Part shown: in pieces, positions 4,371-39,140 of the stretch | How the letters are laid out: every line of letters starts with the position of its first letter | Position numbering within the stretch: position 1 is the first letter of the stretch | From: an uncultured Caldithrix sp. | Lineage (GTDB): Bacteria > Electryoneota > AABM5-125-24 > Hatepunaeales > Hatepunaeaceae | Reading direction: 5' to 3' | Assembly (NCBI GenBank): GCA_964355675.1 | Contig: CAYHEC010000004.1 | Span: 131,924 to 195,923 of the forward strand | DNA length: 64,000 nucleotides | The notes under the pieces: model-generated | Databases searched by the model: none | What the model saw: the letters and a program-made list of their open reading frames with translations, nothing else | What the model was told of the DNA's origin: nothing | Translations under genes and position numbers: made by a program

Positions 4371-4378
4371 TCTGCCTG

Positions 4379-5347: not shown

Positions 5348-5378
5348 TATTGACTATATTCAATGACTTCAGTACAAT

Positions 5379-6614: not shown

Positions 6615-6714
6615 ACCAAGCTGTCCGGCAATGCATACTAAATCAACGGTATCGGCTGATTCTCTGGTATATCCACGCGTACAATGATTATGCGATGGTA
6701 TTAAAATAGGACGA

Positions 6715-8100: not shown

Positions 8101-8101
8101 A

Positions 8102-11876: not shown

Positions 11877-12008
11877 GATTAAGGTTCTATCCTTCCACTT
11901 TTAGATGCATCTGTGATCTGCGTACCAAACAAGTTAATTTACCCTTTTGGTGGTTACAAAGTCAATTGCTTTCGCACCAATGTACCTTTATGATTATTTG
12001 AACACGCA

Positions 12009-13741: not shown

Positions 13742-13819
13742 AGTGAATTTCACTATAATATGCCCACATACTTAATGGTAACTCCTGCCAATTCGAATTG
13801 TTCCTTATCAAAGAAAGAC

Positions 13820-13862
13820 CCCCCGACCGACTTCAGCGCCGGCCGGGGGGCTTTTGCAATCA
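13820..13862 (-). terminator. rho-independent terminator candidate for the 1948-aa T9SS gene
   Basis: A GC stem ccccccgaccg…cggccgggggg is followed on the minus strand by tctttctttg, 15 nt 3' of the stop. Confidence 0.55.
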
Positions 13863-13876
13863 GGAAGATCGGTGAA

Positions 13877-16800
13877 CTACCGAACCAGAATTGCTTTCTG
13901 CATTCCGACAAACGACCCGGACTGCATCTTGATCAGATAGATACCTGAGGTCATGCCCTCCGCCATCCAGTTCAGCTCGTACTGGCCGGCCTGATGATAA
14001 CCTGCGGCGAGCTCTGCTACCATGCGGCCATGCATATCCCAGACACTCACTTGGACGTCTCCCGGAGTCGGCAGACCAATCCGGAGGGTCGTGCGGTTAT
14101 TGAACGGATTCGGGTAACTATTTGAGATAAAGTAGTCCTGCGGCATCTCTGCATGTGGAATCTCAGTTATCTCAAGCGCTTTGGCAGTGAACGCAAAATT
14201 GTTATTTGCGGCCGGGACGTTGCGTTGGTTCTGTTGCGGCACAAGCATCCCACGATCGACCGCAATCACTTTCCAGTTGACAGTTATATCGCGATCTCTA
14301 AGAATACCTCCAAAGAGGCTGTCATAAGGAGGAGTGTAACTCGTCATCGACAGAGTGTCGAACTTCAGCGTGTCATCGATGCCGGGAATCCAAGCACGGA
14401 AATAATATCTAACCGAGTCGATTTCCCAAGGATTCTGGATTGCTTGCTCCCAAGAGAAATTGAATGGTCCAAGAGAATCAGCATTTTCGAAGTTGTGGTT
14501 GTTTTCAGGAGTAAGCAACCTGAAAGCCCCACCACCACCGGCACGTGCATCCGGTAAATCGTTGACGTCCGGCGTTATCGTAATGGTGAAGAACGACGTG
14601 TCGAAATCGCCTGCTCGGTCAGTGGCGATAACAACTACGGTATCTGAACTCATTCGACGGTTTTCGAGATCGTATGTGTTGTAGTTCGGAGCAAATTGGC
14701 GACTCAGCGTGCTGGTCTGGGCATTGACCACAAGACCAAGCTCCTCAGCGCCACGGACGGTAAAGACAAGTGCATCACCGACATCAACATCTCTGAACTT
14801 GAGGCTCAGGCGGATGATATCTCTTCGGTTGGGGTCAACATCTTCGACGATGAGAGGGTTAACGCCAAGGTTTGGTATGAGAGGCATAATGAATGTCGGC
14901 CTGTCGTTGACGGACGCTACTGTTACGTGGATCGTATGACGAACCTCGTTTGGCGCTTGGGCGCGGTCACGGCAGTACACAATCACATCATATTCCCCAA
15001 AGGTATTAACGCGTGGCTGGACACTGACTTCTGTCGTCTGGACATTGTATTGCACCTGCAAATCTGCTGGCAAGGGAGCCACGACGCCAAAGTTGAGCTG
15101 GTCACCTTGATCGGGATCGATCCAGTGGTTGTCGTTCAACGTAGCAATGACTGTTCGCGCCGCATCTTCTTGCAAGTTAGCATCGGGAATAGGATGTGGC
15201 TCAGCGAGTTGCTGATTGTCATCAAGATAGACTGGCGGATCATTGATGTTGCGAACATTGATGGTCAGGGCAAGATTGTCTTGTCCGCCATCGGCGTCCG
15301 TCATCCGAACAACAGTATTATACTGCCCAATGTCCGCGGCGACTGGTTGCCAGGCAAGATGAGCCGTGCCATCGCGGTTGTCGGTAAATTGAGCCGCATC
15401 GGGAAGCCCTCCACGATCGGGCATGGTCCAGACAATTGCCTGCCCCTGACTTTCAATATCAGTACCATTGAATACCAAATCGGCGTTCTGGCGCTCATCG
15501 ATATTCCAAACGAATGCGTCGTTTCGTGTCGGTTCGGTAATTCCGGGCAGATCGTTGACTGAGTTAAAGTGAACCGTGAAAGCATAATCCACGAATAAGT
15601 CGCGCACCGGCACTCCGGCGGGGTCGGACGCATCCGCATCGATGATACTTGCTCCATCAACGCCGCGTAAGTCTCTTCCCGGCATTCCTCCTTGCTGGTC
15701 ATCAGCGCGAATGACAACGGCGACGTCGCCAAAGAAGTTTGGCGGGGGACCTAACTCGAATACCTGAACTCCGCCGAACAATACTGTTCTGTTGAACATA
15801 TTGGGATTGACGGAGACCGGACGGAACAACATTGGGTTTCCGTCAGGATCGTTGAACATGACGTTAAGATTCTCCACCACTGTAAATCGAGGCGGATTGT
15901 CACGCATCTGCGGATCCTCGTCGAAGGTCACCACGTCATTCTGAAATGGGTTGGCGACGATGGGTCGTTGATTGACGTTGCTTAGTGTCACCATGACGGT
16001 CACAATATCAGTGATATTGCCGTAAGTAGCTTGGAAACGCAGTGCGTAAGGGCGATTTCTAAATGCGTTGAAATTGGTCTCCCAACGGAAATCGGCAGTA
16101 TTGTCATTGTTGTCGGTGAAGGTAACGTTACCGGCATTTTGAGCGATTGTATCGCGGTCATTAAAGGTGAAGCGCATGACGTCAGGAGGATTAGCGACGG
16201 TGAAATGAATATTGACAACTTCACCTTCACGGAGGTTAACTGCAGGAGGATTGGGGATTACAGCAACGACGCCCTCAATCGAAATATTGACAACCGTGAA
16301 GCCATCAGCCGTCCAGATCAAATCTCCCTGAACCACCTCAGGCTCAATATTGTCATACTCATGGTTCTGGCTGAAATCCCAGACCTTGAGCGTCATCGTC
16401 TCGTCTTGGGCAAAACCTTCGACACAGAAACGAGTGTCGGGATCATCATGCCAGGCGGCGATACCACAGACTCCCGGATCCTCGACTGTTCCAACGCCAG
16501 CGCAAAGCCCGGCTTCGGTAAAGACGCCAACCTGATCCCCGATAGAGGCTGGTGCGCCACCCATCAGGAACTCTTCGACAAGAATGCTGTGGTTTCGATC
16601 TGAAACCATGTAATCAAAATGTCCGCGTTCATCGGAGCCCATTCCGTTAGGACGGAAGGTGAATTGTTCCTGCCCCGGAGCGTCGTTGAAGACCGTCAGA
16701 ACGCCCTCGTACGGAGCTACAGATGTCGGACGGAACGTGACGGTCACATCGATGGATTCACCAGCATGAAGTACGGTCGCCTGATTGTTGAAGTCGTGGG

Positions 16801-19723: not shown

Positions 19724-20011
19724 CTGCCCTCCCTAACTTTACGGCAACGTTTGAGCGCCAATACGCCATTTCTTTTCCTCAAGTCAACAAGTGGCAAATA
19801 CGCCACTTAGGTGTGTAACAGGTAATATTCCCGTCATTCAAGTAGAATTAGTATCAAAACTACTTTCGACGAGAAGGACTTAAGCCTGATTAAAATACGG
19901 CGAAAGGTGATAATTGTCAAGCAATTTTCATCTTTCTACCCCTTATTTCTTATGTCAAGATAAAGATGTATGCTATCACATCTCTTGACGAATGTCACTA
20001 AGGGACAATTT

Positions 20012-21082
20012 CTACCGAGTTAATGCCAAGGAAATTGAAGCCACCCCAAAAGACGACTCCAATTTGCAGAGATACTTCCCAGACGGAAGTGTTTCTATTT
20101 CAATAGGTATATTATGGATACCAGCGGTTATCTCTCCAAGGTGTTCACTAAATACCTGTCTGCCATCGAGACTGTACACAGAGATGATAATTTTCGATTC
20201 TCGCGGAAGCGCGTAAGAAATAAAAGTCCGACCATTGAATGGATTCGGGAATGCACCCAAAATTTCGAATTGTAAAGGAAGCACTCCCTCAAGTACGGAT
20301 GAAACTGATATATTCCAAAGTCTGACTGTTGTATTTCCGTTTCTGGCAAATACTTCGTTACCTCTCAGCACCAACCAGTTTGTTGAATCGACCTGATAAA
20401 GGGAATCAACCGATAAATAGCTGAATTGAAAACTATCGCCGACTGAAAAGCCCTCGACAACATCTTCCGTAACGGGATCGTCCTCAAAAGCCCACCCGGT
20501 CGCCGAGTCATTGGTCGCCCAAATTAGCAATCCAGCAACATCACCGTCCGGGGTTCGGATTGCCGCCTGATCGCCCGCTTCGGGGCCAATACCCACATCC
20601 CAATTATAAAATTCGGCTGAAGGACAAATAAACCGGTGCCTGTTTAGAGTTGGATGAATTTCGAACTGTGGTTCATTGTCAGCAAGTTCAATAATAAGCA
20701 AACCTCTATCCCGCCATATCCCGTCACCGGTCAAAAGATAGATTTTTCGCAAGGCAATTTCACGTTCGGCTGAGTCATCCCAGCGTACAAAATACATGGA
20801 ATCACCTTCTCGAAAGCCTTCGATGCTGTCTCTCGTCAAAACGTCGTCACCCCAGGCGGCTATACCCACTGGGAAGCCATCCACTATCGTTCCGCCTCCG
20901 CATCGACCTTCAGGAGTAAACAAGCCGAGTTCATCGCCCTGACCCCACAGACCAGCGGTCAAGTAACACTCTCTGATAAGAACCGAGCAGTTGACGTCTG
21001 TTGTATCAAAATTAAAATAACTCGCTCGAGCAGTAACTGTCGATACAAGCAGAAAGGTTAGAGTAAGCGCTATGTTCTTCAT
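20012..21082 (-). CDS. small T9SS cargo protein: signal peptide + two copies of the unassigned module + T9SS sorting domain
   Basis: 356 aa starting MKNIALTLTFLLVSTVTARA. Copy 1 reads NCSVLIRE…GDELGLFTPEGRCGGG…GIAAWGDD…GFREGDSMYFVRWD and is followed by a degenerate copy 2. The sorting domain reads FPNPFNGRTFISYALP…GKYLCKLES…. Confidence 0.8.
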   Translation of the reverse strand: MKNIALTLTFLLVSTVTARASYFNFDTTDVNCSVLIRECYLTAGLWGQGDELGLFTPEGRCGGGTIVDGFPVGIAAWGDDVLTRDSIEGFREGDSMYFVRWDDSAEREIALRKIYLLTGDGIWRDRGLLIIELADNEPQFEIHPTLNRHRFICPSAEFYNWDVGIGPEAGDQAAIRTPDGDVAGLLIWATNDSATGWAFEDDPVTEDVVEGFSVGDSFQFSYLSVDSLYQVDSTNWLVLRGNEVFARNGNTTVRLWNISVSSVLEGVLPLQFEILGAFPNPFNGRTFISYALPRESKIIISVYSLDGRQVFSEHLGEITAGIHNIPIEIETLPSGKYLCKLESSFGVASISLALTR

Positions 21083-21241
21083 TTAGTAATCTTTATGTTC
21101 ATTTGACTTAAATTCCTATTTGCTACTCAAGTTCGTTAATCAAGAGGCAAATTACAATCATTCTTGGAAGGCGGAAACACCTTCTCCAAGGAAAATGTAA
21201 TTCGATTGTACCCCCCTGTTAATCTCCATCCAACGAGTCAA

Positions 21242-24200
21242 TCATCGTAATAGGATCAGCTTCTCGGCGGCTTTGACTTGTCCTGCTTTCACTTCCAGCC
21301 AATAAATACCGGTTGGCAAATCTTTGGCTTCTAAGGAGAATGAATGCCACCCAGCTTCAAGGTTAGAATTGCTGAGAGACCAAACGACTCGCCCTTGCAA
21401 ATCAATTAATCGGCTTACGACATCAGTTCGGGAAGGTAAACCAAATCGAACCGTTGTCCGGCTGTTAAATGGATTTGGGTATGTGGGCGTAATGGTGAGC
21501 TGAGTCGGCAACTCGATGGCACATTCGACCAACGATGCGGTTTCAAAACCATCGGTTGCATAGGCAATGCCGTCTGAAAGAGGATCCAACCGAGCAATCA
21601 TTCGATTATCTTTGATTGCGACAATCGAGAGACTCTCGTTCTCGAGTGCGCCATCGATTTCGCTCGTCAAAGAGTCGTCTCCTCTTAGTACAATACCAGC
21701 AGGCAACGACGCAATCGTTCCCCATCCGACTGTGAGACCCGTTATATTGGAGATAGCCTGCAATGTAACATCTTCACTAACCACACTCGATGGCGCATCA
21801 AGGATCAACAAACTCATATCAGATCCAGTCTGTCGAGATTGTCGTTCGGCTGGAGTGACAGGCATTCGAGGCATTTCTGCCATATTCTCATTGTCAGTAT
21901 AGACAAGTTCGATTCTTCTGTCAACCTTGACTTTGTAGCCTTCACCAGGAACTAAAAAATCCATTCCGAAAAAACCGAAGCGAGGAGCTATAAAATCTCC
22001 GCTCCCGTTTTTGGCAATCATGAGCGCCTGCATGATACTTTCAAAACCAACGCGAGAATTTACCGGGTGATCGAGGAGATAACCAATGGTATTCCAACCA
22101 ATCGAAAGTTGAATTGGAGTATCAAGCTCTGATTTTCGCCCGATGACAACAAGACTATCGTCGGTTGTCACATTGACCTGATACCCATTCAGTGGGTCCC
22201 ATTGACCGAGACCATTGAAATTGAACCGAGTTGTCCAAAATCTTCCCGCTCCATCCTTGATCATTACCAAATGCTGACGTTCTAAAACTCCGGCAAATAA
22301 TGTTGGAATATCAAGGGAGTTAGGTACGACAAAGCTTGAAATTAGGTTCCAGCCCTGAACGAGATGAACGACTTGCACATCCGGATCTTGAATAACAAGT
22401 CTGACCTGGATTTCATCGTTCTCTCTAAAGTGATTGCCTCCGAAAACGTATTCCACATCCGGGTGGAATTCTTCATTGTATCCTGCATCCCAGACAATGA
22501 ATGTCAACGAATCGCCTTGCCTAAACGCCTGATCCCCTCCGTAAATAAAGAAGTCTGCCGGAGCGTCCACCCACCGGACAGCGCCTCCGACTCGGCCCTC
22601 AGGCGTAAGAACGGCAACCTCACTGCCGACAAGTAATTCTCTGCCATACACATCTGTGGAAAGAATCCTGATACTTGCTCGTCTCTCAGATTCGACCGGA
22701 TCATCAAAGTGGCGGAAACCTTCGACTATCTCAAGCGACGCATGAAGGGAAGCGATCGATCCATCGAAGGCATGAACGACGATATCTGCCTCGTAATTGT
22801 CTCCCTGACTGGCCCCAGGTGGAACAGATATATTTACCGTCAAGTCCTCGTTATCTCGCGCCCCAATTTCACCCTCGATCGGATCCAACGTGATCCAACT
22901 AATTCTTGGATTGACCTCCACACCGATCAGGTGTTGTGGATTTGTTCCAACGACTGCTCCGAGAATCCACCGGTTGGCATCCCAACTCCCGATCATGCAG
23001 AGTCCGGTCGGCGCTCCCTCAAAATGAATATCCGTTTCTTCAATAATCTCGCGTTCCGGATCACTCCGATAGATAGCAGTGGAGCCGTCAGGTTCGAGGT
23101 TGGCGATATAAAGTGGAAGATCGTCGATGTCCTCAGGATTCCAGGCGAAACCGTAAACTCCATCAAGATTATGCTCGTCCCATTCTAACAATACTTCACC
23201 GGCACGGTTAACAAGATACCAAGGCATATCATACTCTCCGCACCAGAAGGCGTCTGTCTCCCTATCATACGCCAAAGCCCGATTCACGGTTATTGGCGCT
23301 CCCAGCTGAACACCGATTAATTCCCCATCGGTAGTAAAGGAGTAGATACTATCGTTCTGTGAACCATACAAATACTGTCCGTCCCATGCCAAATCTCTTA
23401 ACCCCCAACCAACTTGCCTTACTTGCGGTTGGTTGAATTGTCGCATTTGAGTACCATTCCGATTCATCACGGATACTTTTAGACCTTGAACCGGATCACC
23501 ACTTGTGACAAAGAACTGGTCTGAGGCATATTCGACGCCCATTATTCTCTGAAGTCCGGTCACAACAGTCAAATTGATGTCGAACTGAATATCCCCGGGG
23601 CGGTCTCTTTCGGGAGCTATGGACCCCGTTTTTCTGAGCGTCCTGCCGTTTCTATCTCGATTAGGAACTTGATTTAGCAAGCGAAGAGTGTAGGGTACAG
23701 AAATTTCACTCTCGTTGATAAGACTTGTGCCGGTCTGGAAATGGTCGTTACCACCTAGTGCGATACCAATATTTTCGACGTCAAATCTGACGATGGGTTG
23801 ATACAATTCAAAATCAACCCTGATGCTGTCACGAGGGTTAAGTTGTACTTCAAGTTCATCACTGGCATATCCCGGTAACACAGCTGTCAGGTTCGTCATT
23901 CCCGGAATAATGCCGACCAGTCGGTAGCCGCCCTGTTGATTGGTAAGAGAACTGATACGACCGTTTGAGATGGTTGCACCTGATAAACTTTGCCCGTTCT
24001 GATCTCGAGCTGTGCCGTAAACCTGGGATCCGACTGGAGGCGATCCTCCCCAGACCACTAAGTCATCGATATACCAGCCTGCGTACCAGTCGATCTCGTT
24101 ATCTGTCTTGAACTGCCAGCGAAAACGGACAGTGTGACCTTCGAATTCAGAAAGATCAACACTTACCATCTGCCAGGCGGCGATTTCACCCGTCCAGGCC

Positions 24201-29962: not shown

Positions 29963-30254
29963 AATCCTCGTTGGATCAGGGTAATGGTTATGGGCTAGAG
30001 TTGTCTCAAGACCCGGCGATACCTGAGATCGCCATGATACAATAAATATAATGTACTTATGATTGGTTAATCAAGAGTCTGGATAAATAATCTCTTTTTT
30101 ATTTTTGTAAGAAAACAGGTGAAGAAAAATAATTAAGTCGGTTCGAGAACTTGGATTCTCAGTCGCATGGCTTCTTCGAGTAATTTGAGTCATGGTGTAA
30201 TCGGTTCAATTTGTTCAAGCGGACGAAAGCGTCCGGTAGTCGATTTTCCGATTA

Positions 30255-30290
30255 TTTCAAAAGCGAGGGGGGCAAGAAGCCCCCCTCCTT
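30255..30290 (-). terminator. rho-independent terminator (bidirectional hairpin) 3' of the 2941-aa gene
   Basis: The stem gaggggggc-aagaa-gcccccctc is flanked by T-runs on both strands, ~30 nt downstream of the stop at 30315. Confidence 0.65.
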
Positions 30291-30314
30291 TTACATTACA
30301 ACGTGACGACACTA

Positions 30315-33300
30315 CTACTTCAGCATCGCACCTTTCACGACATGCCGTTCGTTACCGACCTGCAATACGAACAGATAGATTCCTGCCGGATTCCCAACGC
30401 CATTCCAGGCAACCTCGTGATTTCCGGCTTCGAAACGTCCCTCAGCAATAATAGCTATCGCTCGTGCATGCATATCGTACACCGTCAATGTGACATCACT
30501 GGAATGAGGCAAAGCAAAACTCAGCTTAGTCTCAGGATTAAAGGGATTCGGGAAGTTCTGACTCAAATGAATCTCGACTGGAAGGAAATTCTCCTCGTCC
30601 GGAGCGCTAAGGGGTGGAACGACTACTGTCCAGCGTTGACGAGACTCAATAGTCCCTTGTCCATCTGTCGCTTCGACCCACCATCGGACGCGAAGCGAAT
30701 CTTCGAGTCTATATTGAGCTATCAAAGTATCCACGCCACTCAACGCGAAGGTGGTATCCTGCAACGGGCCTCGTCTGAACGTAGTATCGACCGGTGCATC
30801 GACAAATGTGAAGACTATCGAATACCTTATGGCATCATTATCGACATCGGAAGCGCGGGTCCAACTGAATGTCCCGCGATAATCGACAAGTACATGATTA
30901 TCGCGCGGGGCTTGAAGATCGAAGGCTGTCGGATCGTCATTGACGGGGACAACGGTAACCCTGAACTGCTGTGTAGCTTGTAGTGCCCCATCCGTTGCTG
31001 TCACTGTAATCAGCGCTCCAGCGGCAAGGTTGAAATTATCATCTGGCCTGAAGAAAAGGACTCTGCCATTTTCAATCGCCATCCCTAATCCTTGTGGAGC
31101 GCCAGCGAAGCTGAATTGTAGAGCGTCGTTATCCGGATCGGTGAAGTATTGGTTCAGGTCACCGATCTCGTATCTTCCTTCGTCTTCATTGACCGGCACG
31201 TCATCGATCGCTCCTTGACGTTCAGGGGGACGGTTGATGTTAATTACGGTAATATCAACACGAATTCGATCACTCAAGGCTCCCGGATCAGCCGCCTGAA
31301 ATACCGGACTATATGGATTTTGCCTTCCATCATCTGAGCTTGGCGTCCAAATGAACGTGGCGTTTCCATCTCCTGCATCGTTGAACTGCCATCCCTGGGG
31401 TAATCCACCATCATCGATCACAGTCCAGCGGAGAGCGTCATTATCGGGATCTGAAGCACGGAAATTGATTCGAAGCTCTGCGCGTTCATCCACTCTTATC
31501 TGAAATGCGTCTTGATCGCTGGGTTGAGAGATTACTGGTCGGCTATTTAGATCTCGCGCTGTTATCTCGACCACGATTTCATCTCTTCCACCATCAGAGT
31601 CGGTCGTTCTAAATCGAGGAGTATAAGGCTGACGGCGAGCGTCGAATGGTACATCCCAAACGAAACGAGCCGTTCCATTGCGATTATCGGTGAACTGCCA
31701 ACCATTTGGCAAGCCATCGGGATCAGTCAGCTCCCAGACTAAATCTCCACCATCGGGGTCTGAAGAACGAAAATCGACTATTAGACGCTGACGTTCTTCA
31801 ATTTCTACACGGAAAATATCTGCGTTTGCAGGTTCGGTGATTACAGGAAGAATATTGACATTCCTGACGGTTATCGCCAATCGAACCTGATCGGTTGCTC
31901 CCAACGCGTCAGTCGCAACCGCCAGCGGAGTGTAGGGCTGGCGGCGAGCGTCGGAAGGAGGCGTCCAGAGGAGGGTTGCCGAACCATCGCGATGGTCGGT
32001 GAATTGGAATCCATTAGGCATGCCTCCTGCATCCGGAAGAGTCCAAGCGATTGCATCACCATCAGCATCATCAGCGACAAAGTCAACTCGCAATTCGACA
32101 CGCTCATCGACAGCGACGTCGAAGTTAGCTTGCTCGGTCGGTTCGTGGATGACCGGAGCTCTGTTGAAATTGTTTATGGTAATGGTAACCCGGAGGTCGG
32201 TAAACGCTCCAGCTCGGTCTTCGACCCTGAATTCTGGATGATATACGCCCGCGTCTTCGAAATCAGTTACCCAGATAAAGGTCCCGTTGGCCCCTTGGTG
32301 ATCGAAGTTGGCGCCGTTTCCTACTACTCCATCTTCTACTCGCAGGAATATGTTGATATCATCACCCTCATGAGCAAGATCGACGTCATCTGCACGGAGG
32401 GCGAATTCAATTCGATCACCTTCACGCACCGTAACTTCACGCACCGGATTGACCCAGAAGGGATCGTCGTTACCGGCCCGGACAGTCAATACAAACGTAT
32501 CACTGACGCTGAATTCGTTATCATCAGCAGTAACAACGATATTGAAATTTCCATTGATGTTATCAGCCGGATCTACCGATAAGACTCCACCATTGATTTG
32601 GGCGCTGACATTCCCATCAGCTTCGACTCTGAATCTTAGGCCATCCCCATCGGGATCACTGAAGAAGTCGGACAGAGTATATAAATTTGTCCTGTCCGCG
32701 TCTTCATCGATGTTGACGTCGGGAATTGCTCGGACAATCGGCGGACGATTAGTTTGAGCAACATGAATCGCCACATCTCTATCGGTCGAAACGACGTTAT
32801 CGCTGATGCGGAATGTAGCAGTGTAATCACCTGCTTCGTCAAAAGTTGGTCGCCAGGTAAACGTTGCCGTTCCGTTCTGATGATCCTGAATACTAGCTGA
32901 TTGAGGCAAATTATTACGAATCAATGTGATGGTCAATGCCCCATTGTCCGGATCAGATCCTGCAACATCGAAGTTAATTTCGGTGTTCTCTCGACCATCG
33001 ACTCGATCTGGAATGTTATTCCAGACTGGAGGACGGTTGACGTTATGTACAGTAACGAATAGAACCGATCGTGCTGTCAAATTACCATCGGTGACAACCA
33101 ATTCGCCCCGATAATTACCAGCGTTTGTAAAGTTAGTCTGCCAGTGGAAAGTCCCAACTCCATTGCGTACCTGTTCAAATGTAGCTTCCTCCGGGAAGTT
33201 ACCTCGATCGAATGAAAGAGTCAGGTTATCTCCATCGACGTCTGAAGCTGAGACGTCAAACTCAATAAGTGCGCTTTCATTTATATCGATAGCCTGACCA

Positions 33301-36300
33301 GGCACATTCTCCCAACGAGGCATGTCGTTGACTGAAACCACGGTGACCAGGAACGTCTCGGCAACTTCTAAATCACGATTTACACCCTCATTTCCCGAAG
33401 TTGCTATAGAAACCGAACGGATACCACGCCTCGGTTGAGCTCTTGCCGCCTGAGCGGACCCTGCCAAACCATTTGCATGGAACGCGACAAGCGCTACATT
33501 TCTTCCGTCATCGGCTGTAACGCGAACATCTCCCTCGCCGTGGAAGTTTGCGGCAGGAGTGATCGAGAGAATGTTGTTTTCGTCGATAACAGCGCCAATT
33601 TCGCCTCGTCCGGACACCTGAAAGGTCAGGTTATCGCCATCAGGATCAATAAATACTTCATTTAGATCAGCAACGCGTGTCGTCCCTGAGTCTTCATTGA
33701 CTTGAATATCACCAATAGCGTTTACAACTTCAGGAGCACGATTTACGTCCATCACTGTCGCTTGAACATCGAGTGAAACGTCAGGCATACGCTCATTCTC
33801 GCTGAGCAGATGGAACCGAATCAGATATTCGCCCGCGTCATCAAAGTCAGGCGTCCAGATAAAATTCGATACACCGTCACCGAGATTTTCAAGTTCTGGC
33901 ATGACTTCCGGATTTCCACCAATAAACTCAAAGGTCATTTGGAACTGGTCACGGTCGATGTCGGTGGCGGAGATGTCAAAGGTTATCTCTGATCCTTCAT
34001 CGACACTAAATTCGTTGGGAAAATCTACGAACTCAGGTGGTGCATTGACGTCAGAAATGACGATCCTCACTACAATTTCGGCAGTCGAATCGCCATCTGA
34101 GACAATAAAGTGAGGATTATACTCACCTGCATCCAGATAACTCGGCGTCCAGGAGAATGTGCCGGTCCCGTCTTCATTATCAACGAATTGTGCACGATCC
34201 CTAAGTTCAACATCGCCAGTCATTTGCATGCTCAATGCATCTCCGTCAGGATCTGAAGCAGTCAACGTGAATTCGAGATGTGAAACTTCTGAACCCTCTA
34301 CAACTTGCGGAGGATTAACCCAAACCGGTGCATGGTTTGGATTGAAGCCAGTGCCGCTGAGCGAAACCACAACTCGCGGTTCATTTCGATCATTAGACAA
34401 AACGGTGATCGCATCTTGGAAGTCACCGGGAGATGTTGGAATAAACGAGACAGCGAACGCGGCTGATTCCCCCTCCCTCAGCGTATCTTGCTCTCCAAAA
34501 TTCAGTCCGAACGGCTCACCATCGAGTTCGCTCGGGCTTGAAATTATCAGGTCGGCATTCCCACTATTCGAAATCAACATATCCCAACTGGCCTCACTGC
34601 CAACCGGAATCCGACCGAAGTTGTGAGCAAGTTCGATATTGATCTCAGGTTGGGGAAGAGTATAGAGGTCGAGTCGAAGGACTGTAAATCCGTTGGGCGA
34701 ATATTCTTCAGGACCTTCGTCGATGGATGACTCCACACCGGCGTATTCTGTTTCTGATGAGAAGTCATAGTATCGGAAGGACATGCTTTCATTAATAACA
34801 AATCCTTCGACCGGTTGAGTATCAAGGTCGTCGCCCCAAGCCGCCAATCCAAAGGGTTGATCGCTGGCTTCTTCAAGAATAACGCTACCGGCGCAAATGC
34901 CATGCGAAGTGAATACAGCGACCTCATCACCAGCCGCTAATAATTCATCATTCAGTAAAGCGGAAACTACCAGAAGCGAATGGTTGGCGTTGGTAATTTG
35001 ATAGAAGAAGTGCCCCTGCCCCTCAGGTGATGTGGAGGAAAGCGAAAGTACTGAGAAAGCATCTCGATGATAAATTCCTTCGCCTTCCGCATATTCGGCA
35101 GTTGCGGCAAATTCGGCGCCAAGTTCAGGAAGCCAAATGCGAAATGATATGACTTCACCATCGACAAAACCATCGACAACGTTCGGAGTATTATTGTCGT
35201 CACCCCAGGCGGCTATCCCGAACGAATATTCTTCGATGCGGACAGAACCGGCGGAAAGTCCATCGGTCGTAAATACTCCAACTTCCGAACCAATTGGCAA
35301 TTGCTCATCGTCAAGTGTTGCATTTTCAACCAATAGAGACATATTTCCGTCAGTCTGTTGAAAACGCCAGTGTAACGGTGAAGCGACAGCAGTACCTGTT
35401 AGAGAAACGGAAACCGCACCGTTATCGGGATCGTTGGAATTCAAACCAAGTGAAGCGTTGTAGTCCCGGACTTCCTCAGGAGCAAAAGTCACATGCAGAA
35501 CGGCCGCTTCTCCGACGCCAACATCGAATGCGTTATTGGGAGAAATTTCGAATCCAGCTCCATCGAGAGTAGGAGCTTCAATGCTCAACACATCGCCACC
35601 GGTATTCGAGACGATCAAATCCCATACATCCCGGTCTCCGACGCCAATCTCGCCGAACACATGCTGGTCAGCGGAGATCGAGATTTGAGGCGGCGAAGGG
35701 TTAATGCCAACACCACTAAGATTAATTGTCGCTTCTTGATTATCAGGTGCATTTGAGAATACTGTTAGAATTTGGTTGTACTCTCCTGCTTCTTCCGGAT
35801 GAAATTGGACATCGACATTTATCGAGCGATCTGGTTCGATGGAAACCTGATTATTGAATTCGACAGAAAATGGATTTCCTTGCGTATCGATGCGCTCAAC
35901 AATTAGAGTACCATCTCCGATATTGGCGATATTGAGCATCAATGAACGCGATTCACCGCGCAGAACCCGACCAAAGCCTAATTGCTCAGGCTCAAGCAAG
36001 ATACGAGGCGTCGGCACATGTCGGGAACTGAGAGTCGCAACCGCGAATCCGTTCGTGCGATATATACCTTCGCCAACTGAGTAATCAGCGATTGCATTAA
36101 ATTCATTTCCGGACGACTGATCCCAAATCTTCCACATGATCTCTTCGCCATCTCGGAAACCATCGACCCCCTCCTGATTGTTATCTTCGCCCCACGCGGC
36201 AACACCGAGGGGCCATTCATCAGTAATAAGTGTTGCACCAGCGCAGACGCCCCCAGGTGTGATAACCGCAACTTCATCGCCTGAAACGAGCCGATTACCA

Positions 36301-39140
36301 TCGAGAATTGCATCTTCGATTATAATCGACATGTTCTCAGCAGTAATAGTGAAGGTATAATGCTCACCTTCTGGAATGGCACGACCGATCAAATTCACTA
36401 CTACCTGACTTTCATCAGGGTCATCAGAGAAAATGGTAGCCGTTCCGGCAAAGTCGCCTAATTCATCCGGTATAAAAGTTGCCGGAATAACAAATACGTC
36501 ATTTGGGGCGACTACGATGTTGCCGTCAAAATCGACGCTGAAACCGTTTCCTTGCACGGTTACTCGGCTGATGGTCAGATTAGCAAGACCGACGTTGGAA
36601 CCTTCGATTTGCATAGTTCGCTCACCTCCAACGAATAACGCCTCGAAATCCAGTAAATTTGATGCAAGCGCTATGTCCGGAAGTCTTTCCATTACTCCTG
36701 CGCCCGTGACTCTTAGTGGAAACGATCCAACATCTGGGTCGTCGGATATAACCGTAATAGTTCCGTTGTAGGCACGCTCTTCGCGAGGAGCAAACAATAT
36801 ATCGATTGCAACGGTTTGACCTGCTTCGACAGTGAACGAATTATCCAACTGAACATCAAATGCTTCTTCATTTGAAGTAATTCGCTCAACAGTCAAAACA
36901 CTCTCACCCCAGTTGGAAATCTCTAAACTCCAACTGTCACGGTTACCAATGAGGACTTGGCCAAAATCGTGGGCGACTTCATCCATATTCGGAACATCAT
37001 ACCCGCCACCGCTTCCAACGAAGATATTCGGTTCTAAATCGCGACCGACGCCTGTAAGATCAATCCCAATGTCAGGAGTTTCTTGATCGTTGGAAAGTAC
37101 GTGCAATAAAGCGTCCCAACGTCCGAGTTCCCCCGGACTGAATGTCACGGTGAAATCTGCCGATTGTCCTTGATCGAGAGCAAAACCAGCCGGCTCGAAG
37201 GTGAAATAATCGGATCCTTGACCACCATCTAACTCGAATGTGCCTTCAAGAGGGCCGACTCCTTCATTGGATATTGTCAGCGTACGCTCCAAAAACCTGC
37301 CAACAATAACGGAGCCGAAATCGAGACCATCAGCGCTTACAACGATTTGGGGTGGTTCGTGTGCGCCGCGACCAGAAAGTGGAATTTCGAACTCGGGAGA
37401 ATCGGGGTCATTAGAGCTGACCGTCAATATCCCATTGTAAGCGGCGTAGTCTGGCGGCTCGAACGAGACATTGATTTCAATCGATTCACCGGGCTGGATT
37501 ACCGTTTCCTGAATGTCCTCAGGCTGTCTGCGATTTCCTGCGCTTAGATTTACAATCGTGAATGAATCTCGTGAGTAAACAAGCTCTCCCTGAATGATCT
37601 CGGCTCGAGCGTCCATTTCGCTCCTTGCGGAAAGATCCCAAAAACGGAACGACATCTCTTCGCCGTTGCGGAAGCCGTTAATAATCTGATCTCCTGTTTC
37701 ATCGCCCCATACGGCAAGTCCAACCGGAAAGATTCCATCCCCGTCATCAGTCAGAAGCGTGGCGCCAGCACAAAGTCCAGCGGGGGTGAATACTCCTATT
37801 TCGTCATCGACTTCAAGGGATTGACCATTCAGAGTGGCTTCAAGTATCAAGATTGAGTGATTTCCGTCGGTCTGAGTGAACCGGAAGCGTGGTCCATCAG
37901 GAATTTCTTCCTGATAATCGGTTGCGAATACTTCGTTGTCGGAGGTGACGCCAGTTATCCCAAGGGGTTGATCACCGCTGTTAGATATTGTAACCCGTCT
38001 CGAAGCGATATTGCCGACGATGACATCACCGAAATCAATCTCACTCGGATCCGCTCCGATGTTTGGTTGTGGAGGTATATAACCGTTTCCATGAAGTGTC
38101 ACTTCGATTAGATCCTCATCAGGATCATCCGAGACAACCGTGATCGTGCCATCATAAGATTCTTCAGCGGGAGGATCAAAAGTAACCTGCAACACGAGTC
38201 CTTGGCCAGCGCCGATGACTGTTTCACCATCGAAATTGGTTGAGTAGGAGTCGCCTTGGACATTGACTTCGCTCACCATCAGATCGCTATTACCAACATT
38301 GGTTATAGTCAAGTCCGCTGTCGCTGGGTGGCCAAGCTCCACTTCGCCGAAGTTGATTTCGAGCGGGCTAACATTTATATCAGCAATATGTTCGACTGTT
38401 CCTACACCGACTAACTGAACGGTCGCATCCCCATCGGGGTCATTGGCTTCGATGGTTAATGTACCCTGATACTGGCGTTCCTCAGCGGGCGCAAACGTCA
38501 CTTCGACATCACGAGACTCTGCCGCGCCGAGCTGGACTTCCTGGTCAGGGAAATTTGTAGTAAATACATCGAGATTCGATGAAATTCTTTCCACTATCAG
38601 AGGGTCGATTCCTCGATTGGTGATCGTAAACTGCCAGACGACACGCTCGTTGACTAGGACGTTGCTGAAGTCATGCTCCCCAGCAGAAACAAGGATATCA
38701 GGAGGACCCTCCAAATTTGCAGATAAATTCAATATGGTCAGCCCGTCACGCTCATAGCCATGAGGTCCCATTGTATACTCAGGCTGTGCGGCAACCTCAT
38801 GTTGTGTTCCGCGATCCCAAAAACGGAACGCGAAGGCTTCGGCGTTTCTAAAACCATTTGGGGCTTGCCCTCCGGCATTATCATTGCCCCAAGCGGCAAA
38901 TCCGGCTCCATCTCGGCCTTCTCCAGCCGCGTAAACTGTGGCTCCGGCGCAAAGTCCGGCGGGAGTAAAGACCCCGACTTCATCGCCTGCCTCGACAAAA
39001 GCACCATTTATTCGCGACTCTTCGACTAAGATCGAATGGTTGCCGCCAGTCTCCTCGTACCTGAAGTGTGGTTGTCCGAAGGCGGTCGAAGAAGCGAGAG
39101 CAAGCAGGCAAACTGAGAAAATAATTGTAGAACGACGCAT
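30315..39140 (-). CDS. giant T9SS-secreted cadherin-like adhesin with five copies of the unassigned module
   Basis: 2941 aa with a signal peptide (MRRSTIIFSVCLLALASSTAFGQ). Modules sit at aa ~22-140, 415-534, 925-1038, 1255-1369 and 1375-1491, interleaved with choice-of-anchor-D-type Ig-like domains. About 11 cadherin-like repeats cover aa ~1600-2800, with boundaries VNAPPEF, VNRAPEV, VNDMPRW, VNRPPVW, TNRPPIV, GNDDPFW, FNRAPVI, VNILPVI, LNSRPVI, INRPPER and VNDDPTA. Acidic DxDxD Ca-binding-like loops are present. The T9SS domain reads NFPNPFNPETKLSFALP…GIYLFVLQVG…GAMLK. Confidence 0.85.
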   Translation of the reverse strand: MRRSTIIFSVCLLALASSTAFGQPHFRYEETGGNHSILVEESRINGAFVEAGDEVGVFTPAGLCAGATVYAAGEGRDGAGFAAWGNDNAGGQAPNGFRNAEAFAFRFWDRGTQHEVAAQPEYTMGPHGYERDGLTILNLSANLEGPPDILVSAGEHDFSNVLVNERVVWQFTITNRGIDPLIVERISSNLDVFTTNFPDQEVQLGAAESRDVEVTFAPAEERQYQGTLTIEANDPDGDATVQLVGVGTVEHIADINVSPLEINFGEVELGHPATADLTITNVGNSDLMVSEVNVQGDSYSTNFDGETVIGAGQGLVLQVTFDPPAEESYDGTITVVSDDPDEDLIEVTLHGNGYIPPQPNIGADPSEIDFGDVIVGNIASRRVTISNSGDQPLGITGVTSDNEVFATDYQEEIPDGPRFRFTQTDGNHSILILEATLNGQSLEVDDEIGVFTPAGLCAGATLLTDDGDGIFPVGLAVWGDETGDQIINGFRNGEEMSFRFWDLSARSEMDARAEIIQGELVYSRDSFTIVNLSAGNRRQPEDIQETVIQPGESIEINVSFEPPDYAAYNGILTVSSNDPDSPEFEIPLSGRGAHEPPQIVVSADGLDFGSVIVGRFLERTLTISNEGVGPLEGTFELDGGQGSDYFTFEPAGFALDQGQSADFTVTFSPGELGRWDALLHVLSNDQETPDIGIDLTGVGRDLEPNIFVGSGGGYDVPNMDEVAHDFGQVLIGNRDSWSLEISNWGESVLTVERITSNEEAFDVQLDNSFTVEAGQTVAIDILFAPREERAYNGTITVISDDPDVGSFPLRVTGAGVMERLPDIALASNLLDFEALFVGGERTMQIEGSNVGLANLTISRVTVQGNGFSVDFDGNIVVAPNDVFVIPATFIPDELGDFAGTATIFSDDPDESQVVVNLIGRAIPEGEHYTFTITAENMSIIIEDAILDGNRLVSGDEVAVITPGGVCAGATLITDEWPLGVAAWGEDNNQEGVDGFRDGEEIMWKIWDQSSGNEFNAIADYSVGEGIYRTNGFAVATLSSRHVPTPRILLEPEQLGFGRVLRGESRSLMLNIANIGDGTLIVERIDTQGNPFSVEFNNQVSIEPDRSINVDVQFHPEEAGEYNQILTVFSNAPDNQEATINLSGVGINPSPPQISISADQHVFGEIGVGDRDVWDLIVSNTGGDVLSIEAPTLDGAGFEISPNNAFDVGVGEAAVLHVTFAPEEVRDYNASLGLNSNDPDNGAVSVSLTGTAVASPLHWRFQQTDGNMSLLVENATLDDEQLPIGSEVGVFTTDGLSAGSVRIEEYSFGIAAWGDDNNTPNVVDGFVDGEVISFRIWLPELGAEFAATAEYAEGEGIYHRDAFSVLSLSSTSPEGQGHFFYQITNANHSLLVVSALLNDELLAAGDEVAVFTSHGICAGSVILEEASDQPFGLAAWGDDLDTQPVEGFVINESMSFRYYDFSSETEYAGVESSIDEGPEEYSPNGFTVLRLDLYTLPQPEINIELAHNFGRIPVGSEASWDMLISNSGNADLIISSPSELDGEPFGLNFGEQDTLREGESAAFAVSFIPTSPGDFQDAITVLSNDRNEPRVVVSLSGTGFNPNHAPVWVNPPQVVEGSEVSHLEFTLTASDPDGDALSMQMTGDVELRDRAQFVDNEDGTGTFSWTPSYLDAGEYNPHFIVSDGDSTAEIVVRIVISDVNAPPEFVDFPNEFSVDEGSEITFDISATDIDRDQFQMTFEFIGGNPEVMPELENLGDGVSNFIWTPDFDDAGEYLIRFHLLSENERMPDVSLDVQATVMDVNRAPEVVNAIGDIQVNEDSGTTRVADLNEVFIDPDGDNLTFQVSGRGEIGAVIDENNILSITPAANFHGEGDVRVTADDGRNVALVAFHANGLAGSAQAARAQPRRGIRSVSIATSGNEGVNRDLEVAETFLVTVVSVNDMPRWENVPGQAIDINESALIEFDVSASDVDGDNLTLSFDRGNFPEEATFEQVRNGVGTFHWQTNFTNAGNYRGELVVTDGNLTARSVLFVTVHNVNRPPVWNNIPDRVDGRENTEINFDVAGSDPDNGALTITLIRNNLPQSASIQDHQNGTATFTWRPTFDEAGDYTATFRISDNVVSTDRDVAIHVAQTNRPPIVRAIPDVNIDEDADRTNLYTLSDFFSDPDGDGLRFRVEADGNVSAQINGGVLSVDPADNINGNFNIVVTADDNEFSVSDTFVLTVRAGNDDPFWVNPVREVTVREGDRIEFALRADDVDLAHEGDDINIFLRVEDGVVGNGANFDHQGANGTFIWVTDFEDAGVYHPEFRVEDRAGAFTDLRVTITINNFNRAPVIHEPTEQANFDVAVDERVELRVDFVADDADGDAIAWTLPDAGGMPNGFQFTDHRDGSATLLWTPPSDARRQPYTPLAVATDALGATDQVRLAITVRNVNILPVITEPANADIFRVEIEERQRLIVDFRSSDPDGGDLVWELTDPDGLPNGWQFTDNRNGTARFVWDVPFDARRQPYTPRFRTTDSDGGRDEIVVEITARDLNSRPVISQPSDQDAFQIRVDERAELRINFRASDPDNDALRWTVIDDGGLPQGWQFNDAGDGNATFIWTPSSDDGRQNPYSPVFQAADPGALSDRIRVDITVININRPPERQGAIDDVPVNEDEGRYEIGDLNQYFTDPDNDALQFSFAGAPQGLGMAIENGRVLFFRPDDNFNLAAGALITVTATDGALQATQQFRVTVVPVNDDPTAFDLQAPRDNHVLVDYRGTFSWTRASDVDNDAIRYSIVFTFVDAPVDTTFRRGPLQDTTFALSGVDTLIAQYRLEDSLRVRWWVEATDGQGTIESRQRWTVVVPPLSAPDEENFLPVEIHLSQNFPNPFNPETKLSFALPHSSDVTLTVYDMHARAIAIIAEGRFEAGNHEVAWNGVGNPAGIYLFVLQVGNERHVVKGAMLK

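What the first reader, a model, noticed from the sequence alone, without database searches (positions are those of the whole stretch)
13877..39140. 25-kb island of four consecutive co-directional T9SS cargo genes that recombine one shared domain set
Genes of 1948, 356, 2906 and 2941 aa sit head-to-tail on the minus strand. Each has its own intergenic region: 19724-20011, 21083-21241 and 29963-30314, with a clear terminator at 30255-30290. Every gene carries a signal peptide and a PNPFN-type C-terminal sorting domain. All are built from the same parts list: the unassigned module, CoA-D Ig-like domains, cadherin-like arrays, and MAM-like and CarbopepD_reg-like domains in C. This looks like a locally expanded paralogous family produced by domain shuffling. 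Together the genes occupy ~38% of the window. No T9SS machinery genes (porK/L/M/N, sov, porU/V) lie within the window, so these are cargo only.
Basis: partly seen in the sequence, partly recalled or inferred. Interest (0 to 1): 0.6.

Follow-up and report, generated by a model that had tools for sequence, protein, structure and literature searches.

The report
Conserved cluster of giant surface-protein genes
Four neighbouring genes in an uncultivated Calditrichota-like bacterium encode very large secreted cell-surface proteins made of strings of small beta-sandwich domains; the cluster is real but old and conserved rather than a recently shuffled island, and its only unusual part is a widespread 120-residue domain that no curated library lists.

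Summary
Four minus-strand ORFs (1948, 356, 2906 and 2941 aa) sit at the stated coordinates, each with a signal peptide and a PNPFN-type T9SS type-A C-terminal domain. A hairpin terminator follows the 2941-aa gene. Mis-assembly is excluded: the region has no near-identical DNA repeats, five independent assemblies are collinear with it at 99.8-100% identity, and three diverged relatives keep the same gene order.

The parts shared by all four genes are the signal peptide, one unassigned ~123-aa module and the CTD. Choice-of-anchor-D and cadherin-like arrays occur only in A and D. MAM-like and CarboxypepD_reg domains occur only in C.

The genes are not a local expansion. Each has a full-length one-to-one orthologue elsewhere (A 64/59/51%, B 56/46/41%, C 65/50%, D 57/46%), whereas A and D share only 27-29%. 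Every module copy is closest to the same-position copy in an orthologue. Domain numbers are conserved, and the flanking ALDH-epimerase-Wzi genes are syntenic.

A PorQ/PorV-like gene lies in the window, so "cargo only" is doubtful. The module is a confident seven-strand beta-sandwich found in about 5,800 protein clusters, absent from Pfam, NCBIfam and PDB. Overall this is an ordinary T9SS adhesin-like cluster containing an uncurated domain.

The parts
30315..39140 (-). Gene D, 2941 aa. Order: signal peptide, module, 2 CoA-D, one split CoA-D with a module nested inside it, 3 CoA-D, module, 2 CoA-D, 2 modules, CoA-D, 11 cadherin/Big_9-like units, ~130 aa unassigned, T9SS type-A CTD.
   Evidence: full-length orthologues P0013 (57%) and P0014 (46%)
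21242..29962 (-). Gene C, 2906 aa (2905 aa if it starts at the ATG at 29959). Order: signal peptide, NIDO-like domain, unassigned alpha/beta region, two copies of a ~560-aa supermodule (MAM-like + CarboxypepD_reg + ~340 aa), extra CarboxypepD_reg domains, one module, two 65-aa repeats, a degenerate module, CTD.
   Evidence: orthologue in L085 65% identical over the full length
20012..21082 (-). Gene B, 356 aa. The minimal architecture: signal peptide, two modules, CTD.
   Evidence: orthologues P0153 (56%), P0150 (46%) and P0154 (41%)
13877..19723 (-). Gene A, 1948 aa. Order: signal peptide, module, 3 CoA-D, module, 2 CoA-D, module, CoA-D, module, 3 weak cadherin-like units separated by unassigned stretches, CTD.
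   Evidence: orthologues in L085 (64%), P0019 (59%) and L086 (51%)
38706..39083 (-). Unassigned ~123-aa module, copy D1, directly after the signal peptide. Other copies: D 37524-37898, 36015-36380, 35019-35390, 34662-35030; A 19286-19660, 17972-18337, 16949-17335, 16271-16633; B 20663-21034, 20300-20677; C 22379-22720.
   Evidence: AF2 model pLDDT 91.7, seven strands. No Pfam or PDB sequence match, and NCBIfam reported nothing in the module regions when the four whole proteins were scanned. No fold match with E<=0.001. 5810 representative proteins match the module profile.
37371..38060 (-). Choice-of-anchor-D Ig domain of D (residues 361-590), split by the nested module D2 (residues 415-539).
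   Evidence: the two halves joined give a full-length CoA-D match of 80 bits. The nesting is conserved in P0013 and P0014.
30318..30575 (-). T9SS type-A C-terminal sorting domain of D, below the curated cut-offs. CTDs of the other genes: A 13880-14125, B 20015-20269, C 21245-21499.
30257..30287 (-). Terminator-like G+C-rich hairpin plus T-run downstream of D.
13808..13851 (-). Terminator-like hairpin (14-bp stem) plus T-rich tail downstream of A.
46930..48018 (-). PorQ/PorV-family-like outer-membrane protein, a possible T9SS accessory component. It lies outside the finding's coordinates.
   Evidence: T9SS_PorQ E 1e-30, 107 bits against cut-off 220; PorV_fam 81 bits against 90. No Pfam or PDB hit.
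41671..44445 (-). Fifth T9SS type-A CTD cargo gene (924 aa), with no module and no other assigned domain.

Best explanation
The region is a conserved chromosomal cluster of four anciently diverged paralogous genes in an uncultivated bacterium. The closest relatives found here are Calditrichota MAGs. The genes encode giant non-enzymatic beta-sandwich-array proteins that are exported and displayed on the cell surface.

Inferred mechanism:
1. The Sec signal peptide takes each protein to the periplasm.
2. [quoted passage not shown]
3. By analogy with Porphyromonas, the CTD is then removed by the PorU sortase and the new C-terminus is attached to a surface glycolipid.
4. The choice-of-anchor-D and cadherin-like Ig arrays (CarboxypepD_reg and MAM-like arrays in C) then act as a long stalk.
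5. In A, B and D the mature N-terminus, which is the distal tip, is the unassigned 123-aa module. The module recurs along the stalk and is the most likely ligand-binding or protein-protein contact element.

B is the minimal form, with two modules and a CTD.

Status of the steps. Shown: the gene structure, domain content, orthology, synteny, the old age of the duplications, and the fold class and distribution of the module. Inferred: secretion by T9SS, surface anchoring, and an adhesin-like or matrix role. The confidence of 0.65 is for the whole statement: about 0.9 for the descriptive part (real, conserved, old paralogous T9SS-signal-bearing genes) and about 0.5 for the surface-adhesin or matrix function.
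For: Gene structure and sorting signals.

No catalytic domain was recognised. There is no HExxH motif and no enzyme family anywhere in about 8,150 aa.

One-to-one orthologues exist with conserved length, module number and module positions.

Synteny holds in three diverged loci:
- L085 (GCA_945865405.1, a Calditrichota MAG): D-C-B-A-ALDH-epimerase-Wzi.
- L086: C-extra gene-B-A-ALDH-epimerase-Wzi.
- L087: C-extra gene-B-A.

The same locus was assembled in five datasets, collinear at 99.8-100% nt identity with no gaps.

For the module:
- The AF2 model is confident (pLDDT 91.7) and shows a seven-strand beta-sandwich.
- 5810 representative proteins match its profile.
- Of the best 150 plus the window's own fragment (151 proteins), 113 end in a T9SS CTD and 91 carry the module within the first 60 residues.
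- In D the modules are more conserved between orthologues (58-78%) than the CoA-D spacers (46-57%).

All family members that carry a public name are 'choice-of-anchor D domain-containing protein [Calditrichota bacterium]' or '[bacterium]'.

The T9SS mechanism is taken from PMC8545088, PMC4804311 and PMC5445135. T9SS is reported across the FCB superphylum in PMC12421860 (abstracts seen).
Against: - No core T9SS genes (porK/L/M/N, sprA/sov, porU) are in the window. Only a sub-threshold PorQ/PorV-like gene is present, so secretion by T9SS in this organism is not demonstrated.
- D's CTD is below both curated cut-offs.
- About 600 N-terminal residues of C, several hundred residues of A and a further stretch of D remain unassigned. 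The model of C's N-terminus is poor (pLDDT 56.5), so a hidden enzymatic domain cannot be excluded.
- No ligand for the module is known. Fold searches returned only generic Ig-like or adhesin-like sandwiches with TM below 0.5.
- In A the modules are not clearly more conserved than the spacers.
Confidence: 0.65

Rival explanations
1. One reading: a variable genomic island holding a recently and locally expanded paralogous family that keeps recombining one shared set of domains.
For: The four genes do share the module and the CTD, and A and D share a collinear N-terminal pattern. Gene number varies slightly among relatives: L086 and L087 carry one extra CarboxypepD_reg + CTD gene of 1355-1451 aa between C and B. 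Tandem pairs of module-bearing genes are common in other Calditrichota loci.
Against: A and D are 27-29% identical, against 57-64% to their own orthologues. Each module's nearest relative is the same-position copy in an orthologue. Module counts and positions are identical across orthologues. DNA-level repeats are at most 84% identical over at most 56 nt, and there are no tandem repeats. The flanks are syntenic, there is no tRNA, and no integrase was seen among the ORFs scanned.
Confidence: 0.07
2. An assembly artefact: one repetitive gene mis-assembled into four ORFs through collapsed or chimeric joins.
For: The window's coverage is unknown. Two of the independent contigs have low coverage (4.9-5.3x) and differ from the window in two short clustered patches.
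Against: Five independent assemblies from different runs are collinear across the C-B-A junctions, and L001 also across D-C, with no gaps. Three diverged orthologous loci have the same gene boundaries. There are no long or high-identity DNA repeats. Each ORF has its own signal peptide and its own CTD.
Confidence: 0.02
3. At least C is a secreted or surface-bound enzyme, such as a polymer-degrading hydrolase or protease, whose catalytic domain lies in the unassigned N-terminal ~600 residues. The other genes would supply substrate-binding partners.
For: InhA-like MAM and CarboxypepD_reg domains usually accompany M6 or M36 metallopeptidases; the NCBIfam hits to M36 and M6-like models cover only those accessory regions. 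C residues 211-440 look like an alpha/beta domain with faint flavodoxin/GATase-like fold matches. C's N-terminal part is its most conserved (70-74% against L085).
Against: There is no HExxH motif. No Pfam, NCBIfam or PDB sequence hit falls in residues 1-620 except a sub-threshold NIDO-like match, which is an adhesion-type domain. The model is low-confidence and its fold matches are not significant (best E 0.017).
Confidence: 0.15
4. The proteins are building blocks of a cell envelope layer or sheath (S-layer-like mesh) that self-assembles through module-module contacts, rather than adhesins for external ligands.
For: The modules recur along the stalks and also occur in a small two-module protein, B, which could act as a connector. 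The cluster sits next to a conserved capsule/EPS locus with Wzi, Wzz and Wzy. C has a weak NCBIfam hit to an anammox S-layer glycoprotein through its CarboxypepD_reg region.
Against: There is no direct evidence of self-association. The S-layer hit covers only one generic domain. No expression level is known, whereas S-layer proteins are usually very abundant.
Confidence: 0.15

Closest known systems
T9SS type-A CTD cargo proteins of Bacteroidota (for example P. gingivalis gingipains and Hbp35, and CTD-bearing adhesins of Flavobacteriia/Cytophagia)
   Same: They share an N-terminal Sec signal and a C-terminal ~80-aa beta-sandwich sorting domain (PF18962/TIGR04183) at the extreme C-terminus, preceded by Ig-like domains. 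Surface display after CTD removal is expected.
   Different: The host is a Calditrichota-like lineage, not Bacteroidota. No catalytic domain is present. The proteins are far larger (1.9-2.9 thousand aa). D's CTD scores below the curated cut-offs. Secretion is untested.
Proteins publicly annotated 'choice-of-anchor D domain-containing protein' (NCBIfam NF012200; Pfam HYDIN/VesB/CFA65-like Ig, DUF1573, ASH)
   Same: A and D contain 6 and 9-10 copies far above the cut-off. Public relatives of the family (MBM3325473.1, MBT3231433.1, MFN3820765.1) carry exactly this name.
   Different: That name describes only the spacer Ig domains. The interleaved 123-aa module, sometimes nested inside a CoA-D domain, is not covered by any curated model.
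Giant repetitive bacterial adhesins with cadherin-like/Big_9 arrays (tandem-95 repeat proteins; SprB-type gliding adhesins; RTX/BAP-type adhesins)
   Same: They share long arrays of ~90-aa Ig/cadherin-like units forming a stalk, with a probable distal binding region.
   Different: SprB-type adhesins use type-B CTDs, and RTX adhesins use T1SS. Here the signal is a type-A CTD, and the distal element is a new module.
M6/M36 metallopeptidases with InhA-like MAM and CarboxypepD_reg accessory domains
   Same: C carries two MAM-like and at least four CarboxypepD_reg domains.
   Different: C has no peptidase domain and no HExxH motif. Only the accessory domains match.

Membership tests
T9SS type-A CTD cargo (TIGR04183 / PF18962) | C-terminal sorting domain that matches the model at or above the curated cut-off and lies at the extreme C-terminus | tested here: met
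   A, B and C pass: Pfam 33.3, 31.4 and 36.6 bits against 27; TIGR04183 36.0, 28.7 and 33.3 bits against 23. All end at the last residue. D is the exception (see the next row).
T9SS type-A CTD cargo (TIGR04183 / PF18962) | The same feature for gene D | tested here: inconclusive
   D scores 19.9 bits (Pfam, cut-off 27) and 19.2 bits (TIGR04183, cut-off 23). It does have the FPNPFN motif and matches the CTDs of A, B and C at BLASTP E 1e-10. Its orthologues also end in this domain.
T9SS type-A CTD cargo (TIGR04183 / PF18962) | N-terminal Sec signal peptide | tested here: met
   Judged by inspection of the translated N-termini: a basic n-region, a hydrophobic run of 12-14 residues, and small residues at -3/-1 (VLA|D, ARA|S, ANG|N, AFG|Q). 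No dedicated predictor was available.
T9SS type-A CTD cargo (TIGR04183 / PF18962) | The genome encodes the T9SS core (PorK/L/M/N, SprA/Sov, PorU/V) | not testable with these tools
   Only 64 kb is available. It holds a sub-threshold PorQ/PorV-like OMP and a weak PorW/SprE-like TPR protein whose match is probably driven by the TPR repeats. The rest of the genome could not be fetched.
T9SS type-A CTD cargo (TIGR04183 / PF18962) | Experimentally shown secretion, CTD cleavage and surface attachment | not testable with these tools
   This needs proteomics or genetics.
Choice-of-anchor D domain proteins (NF012200) | One or more domains above the 45-bit cut-off | tested here: met
   A scores 206.7 bits (6 stretches) and D 363.1 bits (9 stretches). 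B and C have none, so this family covers only two of the four genes.
Genomic island (horizontally acquired, variable) | Presence/absence polymorphism among relatives, atypical composition, and tRNA, integrase or flanking repeats | tested here: not met
   The locus is conserved at the same chromosomal site in L085 and L086. GC is 0.46-0.52 against 0.42-0.52 in the flanks. There is no tRNA, and no mobility gene appeared among the flanking ORFs that were scanned.
Recent lineage-specific (local) paralogue expansion | Paralogues within the genome are closer to each other than to homologues in other genomes | tested here: not met
   A and D are 27-29% identical, against 57-64% between orthologues. 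The same holds module by module.
M6/M36 metallopeptidases | Zincin catalytic domain with HExxH | tested here: not met
   None of the four proteins has an HExxH motif. The matches cover only the MAM-like and accessory regions.
NIDO (PF06119) domain, N-terminus of C | A match at or above the 25-bit cut-off | tested here: inconclusive
   The direct hit scores 13.3 bits, E 0.085. However, C residues 43-211 align at E 6e-22 with a region of P0161 (residues 244-401) that contains P0161's above-threshold NIDO match (residues 285-338, 32.5 bits).

The most novel reading that the evidence does not exclude
The 123-aa module is a previously undescribed domain family, so far named only in Calditrichota. 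It would act as the functional 'business end' of a large class of T9SS cargo: a distal, sometimes Ig-nested, ligand-binding or self-association domain. One candidate ligand is the glycan made by the syntenic Wzi/Wzz/Wzy locus. On this reading the conserved D-C-B-A cluster would encode a dedicated surface apparatus (adhesive fibrils or an envelope mesh) characteristic of the phylum.
Probability: 0.25. Interest if true: 0.5.

Novelty: new member of a known kind. Interest (0 to 1): 0.3.

Why it matters
Calditrichota are abundant in sediments, but almost nothing is known about their cell surface. This cluster shows that these bacteria devote about 24 kb to a stable, vertically inherited set of giant T9SS-type surface proteins.

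The cluster also exposes a widespread domain (at least 5,800 protein clusters at 50% identity) that Pfam, NCBIfam and the PDB do not cover. Curating that domain and finding its ligand would improve annotation of thousands of "choice-of-anchor D" or hypothetical giant proteins. Beyond that, the locus is an ordinary example of tandem T9SS cargo genes.

Tried and rejected
- Profile search of the module with the word-indexed protein database returned only a fragment of gene A itself. The exhaustive HMMER search was needed to find the family.
- The genome-contig scan with protein B mostly hit other proteins through the PNPFN CTD motif. It gave distribution hints only, not orthologues.
- The metagenome scan with the flanking NMO/FabK-like gene found only distant homologues (at most 55% identity) and no synteny information.
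- The structure of C's N-terminal 596 aa was poor (pLDDT 56.5), and its fold matches were not significant.
- hhalign of the module against the CoA-D, cadherin-like and CTD alignments from the same proteins gave probabilities of 1.2% or less, so the module is not a diverged copy of those domains.
- There are no Rfam families, tRNAs or tandem DNA repeats in the region.
- Literature searches for Calditrichota or Caldithrix together with T9SS found nothing. The C. abyssi genome paper does not mention secretion or sorting domains.
- A diversity-generating retroelement was considered for the clustered differences between assemblies. It was rejected because the substitutions are not adenine-specific.
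- Exact look-up of D's encoding contig failed, so the NCBI assembly of the window's own genome could not be named.
Full report
**1. Observation**

The ORF listing reproduces the four minus-strand ORFs at exactly the stated coordinates: A 13877-19723 (1948 aa), B 20012-21082 (356 aa), C 21242-29962 (2906 aa, TTG) and D 30315-39140 (2941 aa). The intergenic gaps of 288, 159 and 352 nt and the 38% share of the window follow directly. C more likely starts at the ATG one codon downstream, at 29959, which gives the 2905 aa called in public assemblies.

Every plausible gene in the 64-kb window is on the minus strand. Co-directionality is therefore not a property of these four genes.

A G+C-rich hairpin with a T-run lies at 30287-30265 just after D. 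A second hairpin, with a 14-bp stem, lies at 13851-13818 after A. No terminator was detected after B or C. D alone and C-B-A are therefore plausible transcription units, but this is inference only.

All four N-termini read as Sec signal peptides. All four C-termini carry [YF]PNPFN and align with each other over about 85 residues. Por_Secre_tail/TIGR04183 passes the curated cut-offs in A, B and C but not in D (19.9 and 19.2 bits). D's CTD is nevertheless clearly homologous to the other three.

**2. Not an artefact**

- DNA repeats inside 13.5-39.5 kb are at most 56 nt long and 60-84% identical.
- Tandem Repeats Finder finds nothing.
- Protein B's exact sequence is found on five contigs from five datasets (ENA ERZ4201063 and ERZ4201064; Logan SRR24858484, SRR6684603 and ERR3856787), each with the same neighbours.
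- Those contigs align to the window at 99.8-100% nt identity without a single gap.
- Three diverged loci have the same gene boundaries.

**3. Domain anatomy**

Pfam and NCBIfam scans and HMMs built from the window's own repeats give the following maps.

| Gene | Domain order (residues) |
|---|---|
| A | SP; M (22-146); 3 CoA-D; M (463-584); 2 CoA-D; M (797-925); CoA-D; M (1031-1151); 3 weak cadherin-like units with unassigned stretches; CTD |
| B | SP; M; M; CTD |
| C | SP; NIDO-like domain (43-210); unassigned alpha/beta region; ~560-aa supermodule (MAM-like + CarboxypepD_reg + ~340 aa) present twice (615-1178 and 1832-2378, 23-37% identical); extra CarboxypepD_reg; one M (2415-2528); two 65-aa repeats; degenerate M; CTD |
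| D | SP; M; 2 CoA-D; split CoA-D with M nested inside; 3 CoA-D; M; 2 CoA-D; M; M; CoA-D; 11 cadherin/Big_9 units; ~130 aa unassigned; CTD |

SP is the signal peptide, M the unassigned module and CoA-D the choice-of-anchor-D Ig domain. The NIDO-like assignment in C is transitive: a BLASTP match at E 6e-22 to a region of P0161 that contains P0161's above-threshold PF06119 match.

Only the signal peptide, the module and the CTD are common to all four genes. "One shared domain set" is therefore overstated. No enzyme family and no HExxH motif occur in any of the proteins.

**4. The unassigned module**

- There are twelve clear copies of about 123 aa. The consensus is HF..TD.NHSILI...G..L..GDEVGVFTP.GLCAGA....G.AAWGDD...GF..GE..F..WD...E...Y..G...Y..DGFT...LS.
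- No Pfam hit with E below 0.03 and no PDB sequence hit was found. NCBIfam reported nothing in the module regions of B.
- hhalign shows no relation to the CoA-D, cadherin-like or CTD domains of the same proteins.
- AlphaFold2 on the 12-copy alignment gives a confident seven-strand beta-sandwich (pLDDT 91.7, pTM 0.86).
- Foldseek against PDB and BFVD finds only generic Ig-like, adhesin, pilin or tail-fibre sandwiches (E at least 0.005, TM at most 0.48).
- An exhaustive HMMER search of 1.84 billion representatives finds 5810 proteins at E<=1e-3 and 2736 at E<=1e-10, with up to 15 copies per protein.
- Of the best 150 plus the window's own fragment (151 proteins), 113 end in a T9SS CTD and 91 have the module within 60 residues of the N-terminus.
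- Every member with a public name is [quoted passage not shown], "[bacterium]" or hypothetical.
- Among 79 genome loci fetched from many FCB phyla, only Calditrichota MAGs and unclassified MAGs carried modules, often in two adjacent genes.

In D, module 2 is nested inside a CoA-D domain. Joining residues 361-418 and 540-592 restores a full-length CoA-D match of 80 bits. The nesting is conserved in D's orthologues. It recurs for 48 of 661 modules, in 24 of 166 proteins examined.

**5. Old, conserved paralogues rather than a local expansion**

A and D share 27-29% identity. Each gene has full-length collinear orthologues:

| Gene | Orthologue identity |
|---|---|
| A | 64% (L085), 59% (P0019), 51% (L086), about 40% (P0046, P0026, P0028) |
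| B | 56%, 46%, 41% |
| C | 65%, 50%, 47% |
| D | 57% (P0013), 46% (P0014), 68% over the C-terminal 327 aa in L085 |

Module number and positions are identical in the orthologues. Each window module is closest (57-78%) to the same-position module of an orthologue, never to another copy in the window (at most 49%).

Gene order is conserved:
- L085 (GCA_945865405.1, contig CAMBDS010000012.1, a Calditrichota MAG): D-C-B-A-ALDH-epimerase-Wzi.
- L086 (JGI 3300045115): C-extra gene-B-A-ALDH-epimerase-Wzi.
- L087: C-extra gene-B-A.

The extra gene (1355-1451 aa; CarboxypepD_reg + degenerate module + CTD) is the only variation in gene number seen.

Two further pairs may represent more syntenic instances. 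P0019 and P0013 both come from Logan data with a longest contig of 37,297 bp. P0046 and P0014 both list a longest contig of 216,678 bp. Each pair is therefore probably on one contig, but this was not verified.

The flanking enzymes are 69-79% identical at the same divergence. The cargo genes thus evolve somewhat faster while keeping their architecture. There is no tRNA, and no mobility gene appeared among the ORFs scanned. Composition is not atypical, so the region is not an "island" in the usual sense.

**6. Context**

Downstream of A lie ALDH, an NAD-dependent epimerase/dehydratase, Wzi, Wzz, a Wzy/O-antigen-ligase-like gene, glycosyltransferases and an EPS priming transferase.

Upstream of D lie an NMO/FabK-like gene, rubrerythrin, AhpC and a fifth T9SS-CTD gene without modules (41671-44445). 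Further upstream are a periplasmic binding protein, a PorQ/PorV-family-like OMP (46930-48018) and a Peptidase_MA_2 ORF. The PorQ/PorV-like ORF matches T9SS_PorQ at E 1e-30 and PorV_fam at E 9e-23, both below the curated cut-offs. The claim of no T9SS machinery in the window is therefore doubtful, although no core component is present.

**7. Mechanism**

The best-supported reading has five steps:
1. Sec export to the periplasm.
2. T9SS translocation directed by the type-A CTD.
3. CTD removal and glycolipid anchoring.
4. Display of a long Ig/cadherin-like stalk.
5. The module sits at the distal mature N-terminus in A, B and D, and also along the stalk.

The T9SS steps are taken from PMC8545088, PMC4804311 and PMC5445135. 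The FCB-wide distribution of T9SS is from PMC12421860. In D the modules are more conserved between orthologues than the CoA-D spacers (58-78% against 46-57%). In A the picture is mixed, and the CTD is the most conserved part at 80-85%. Secretion, anchoring and the adhesin or mesh function are all inferred, not shown.

**8. Verdict**

This is a new member of a known kind: tandem T9SS type-A cargo genes for giant adhesin-like proteins, publicly annotated as choice-of-anchor-D proteins. The modest novelty is an uncurated, widespread beta-sandwich module that is sometimes nested inside an Ig domain. Interest is 0.3.

Noticed in passing
window 37371-38060 (D residues 361-590): Module copy D2 is inserted inside a choice-of-anchor-D Ig domain (a domain within a domain). 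Joining the two halves restores a full CoA-D match. The nesting is conserved in orthologues P0013 and P0014, and recurs for 48 of 661 modules in 24 of 166 family proteins.
   Followed up: yes
window 46930-48018 (-) and 47891-48934 (-): A PorQ/PorV-family-like outer-membrane protein (NCBIfam E 1e-30, below the curated cut-offs; no Pfam or PDB hit) lies next to, and overlaps, a Peptidase_MA_2 ORF. This contradicts the claim of 'no T9SS machinery in the window'.
   Followed up: partly
window 41671-44445 (-): A fifth T9SS type-A CTD gene (924 aa) with no module and no other recognisable domain lies 2.5 kb upstream of D. It is separated from D by the NMO/FabK-like, rubrerythrin and AhpC genes.
   Followed up: partly
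window 22829-24469 and 26429-28120 (C residues 1832-2378 and 615-1178): C contains an internal duplication of a ~560-aa supermodule (MAM-like + CarboxypepD_reg + ~340 unassigned residues), 23-37% identical.
   Followed up: yes
window 29333-29836 (C residues 43-210): The N-terminal domain of C is NIDO (nidogen)-like by transitive homology (E 6e-22 to a region of P0161 that contains P0161's above-threshold PF06119 match; the direct Pfam hit is only 13.3 bits). The following ~400 residues are unassigned and were modelled poorly.
   Followed up: partly
window 24250-24328 (C residues 1879-1905) and 19016-19078 (A residues 216-236): Differences between the window and otherwise identical independent assemblies cluster in two short patches. 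In L001, 7 of 8 mismatches fall within 79 nt. In L004, 17 of 18 fall within 63 nt and create a stop that splits A. The substitutions are not adenine-specific, so they are not DGR-like. Low-coverage error and real micro-heterogeneity could not be told apart.
   Followed up: partly
L086 5609-9964; L087 4150-8217: Two relatives carry an extra 1355-1451-aa gene (CarboxypepD_reg + degenerate module + CTD) between the C and B orthologues. The window has only a 159-nt spacer there.
   Followed up: partly
window 1904-13490: A capsule/EPS/O-antigen-type locus (priming transferase, heptosyltransferase-like, GT2, Wzy-like, Wzz, Wzi, epimerase, ALDH) directly adjoins gene A. The ALDH-epimerase-Wzi part is syntenic with the cargo cluster in L085 and L086. 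A functional link, such as supply of the anchoring glycan, is speculation.
   Followed up: partly
window 1-64000: All ORFs that look like genes are on the minus strand and cumulative GC skew falls monotonically, so the whole window is one co-directional block.
   Followed up: no
window 58218-60695 (-): An 825-aa TPR protein with a TonB C-terminal domain gives a weak match to PorW/SprE (62.9 bits against cut-off 250). The match is probably driven by the TPR repeats.
   Followed up: no
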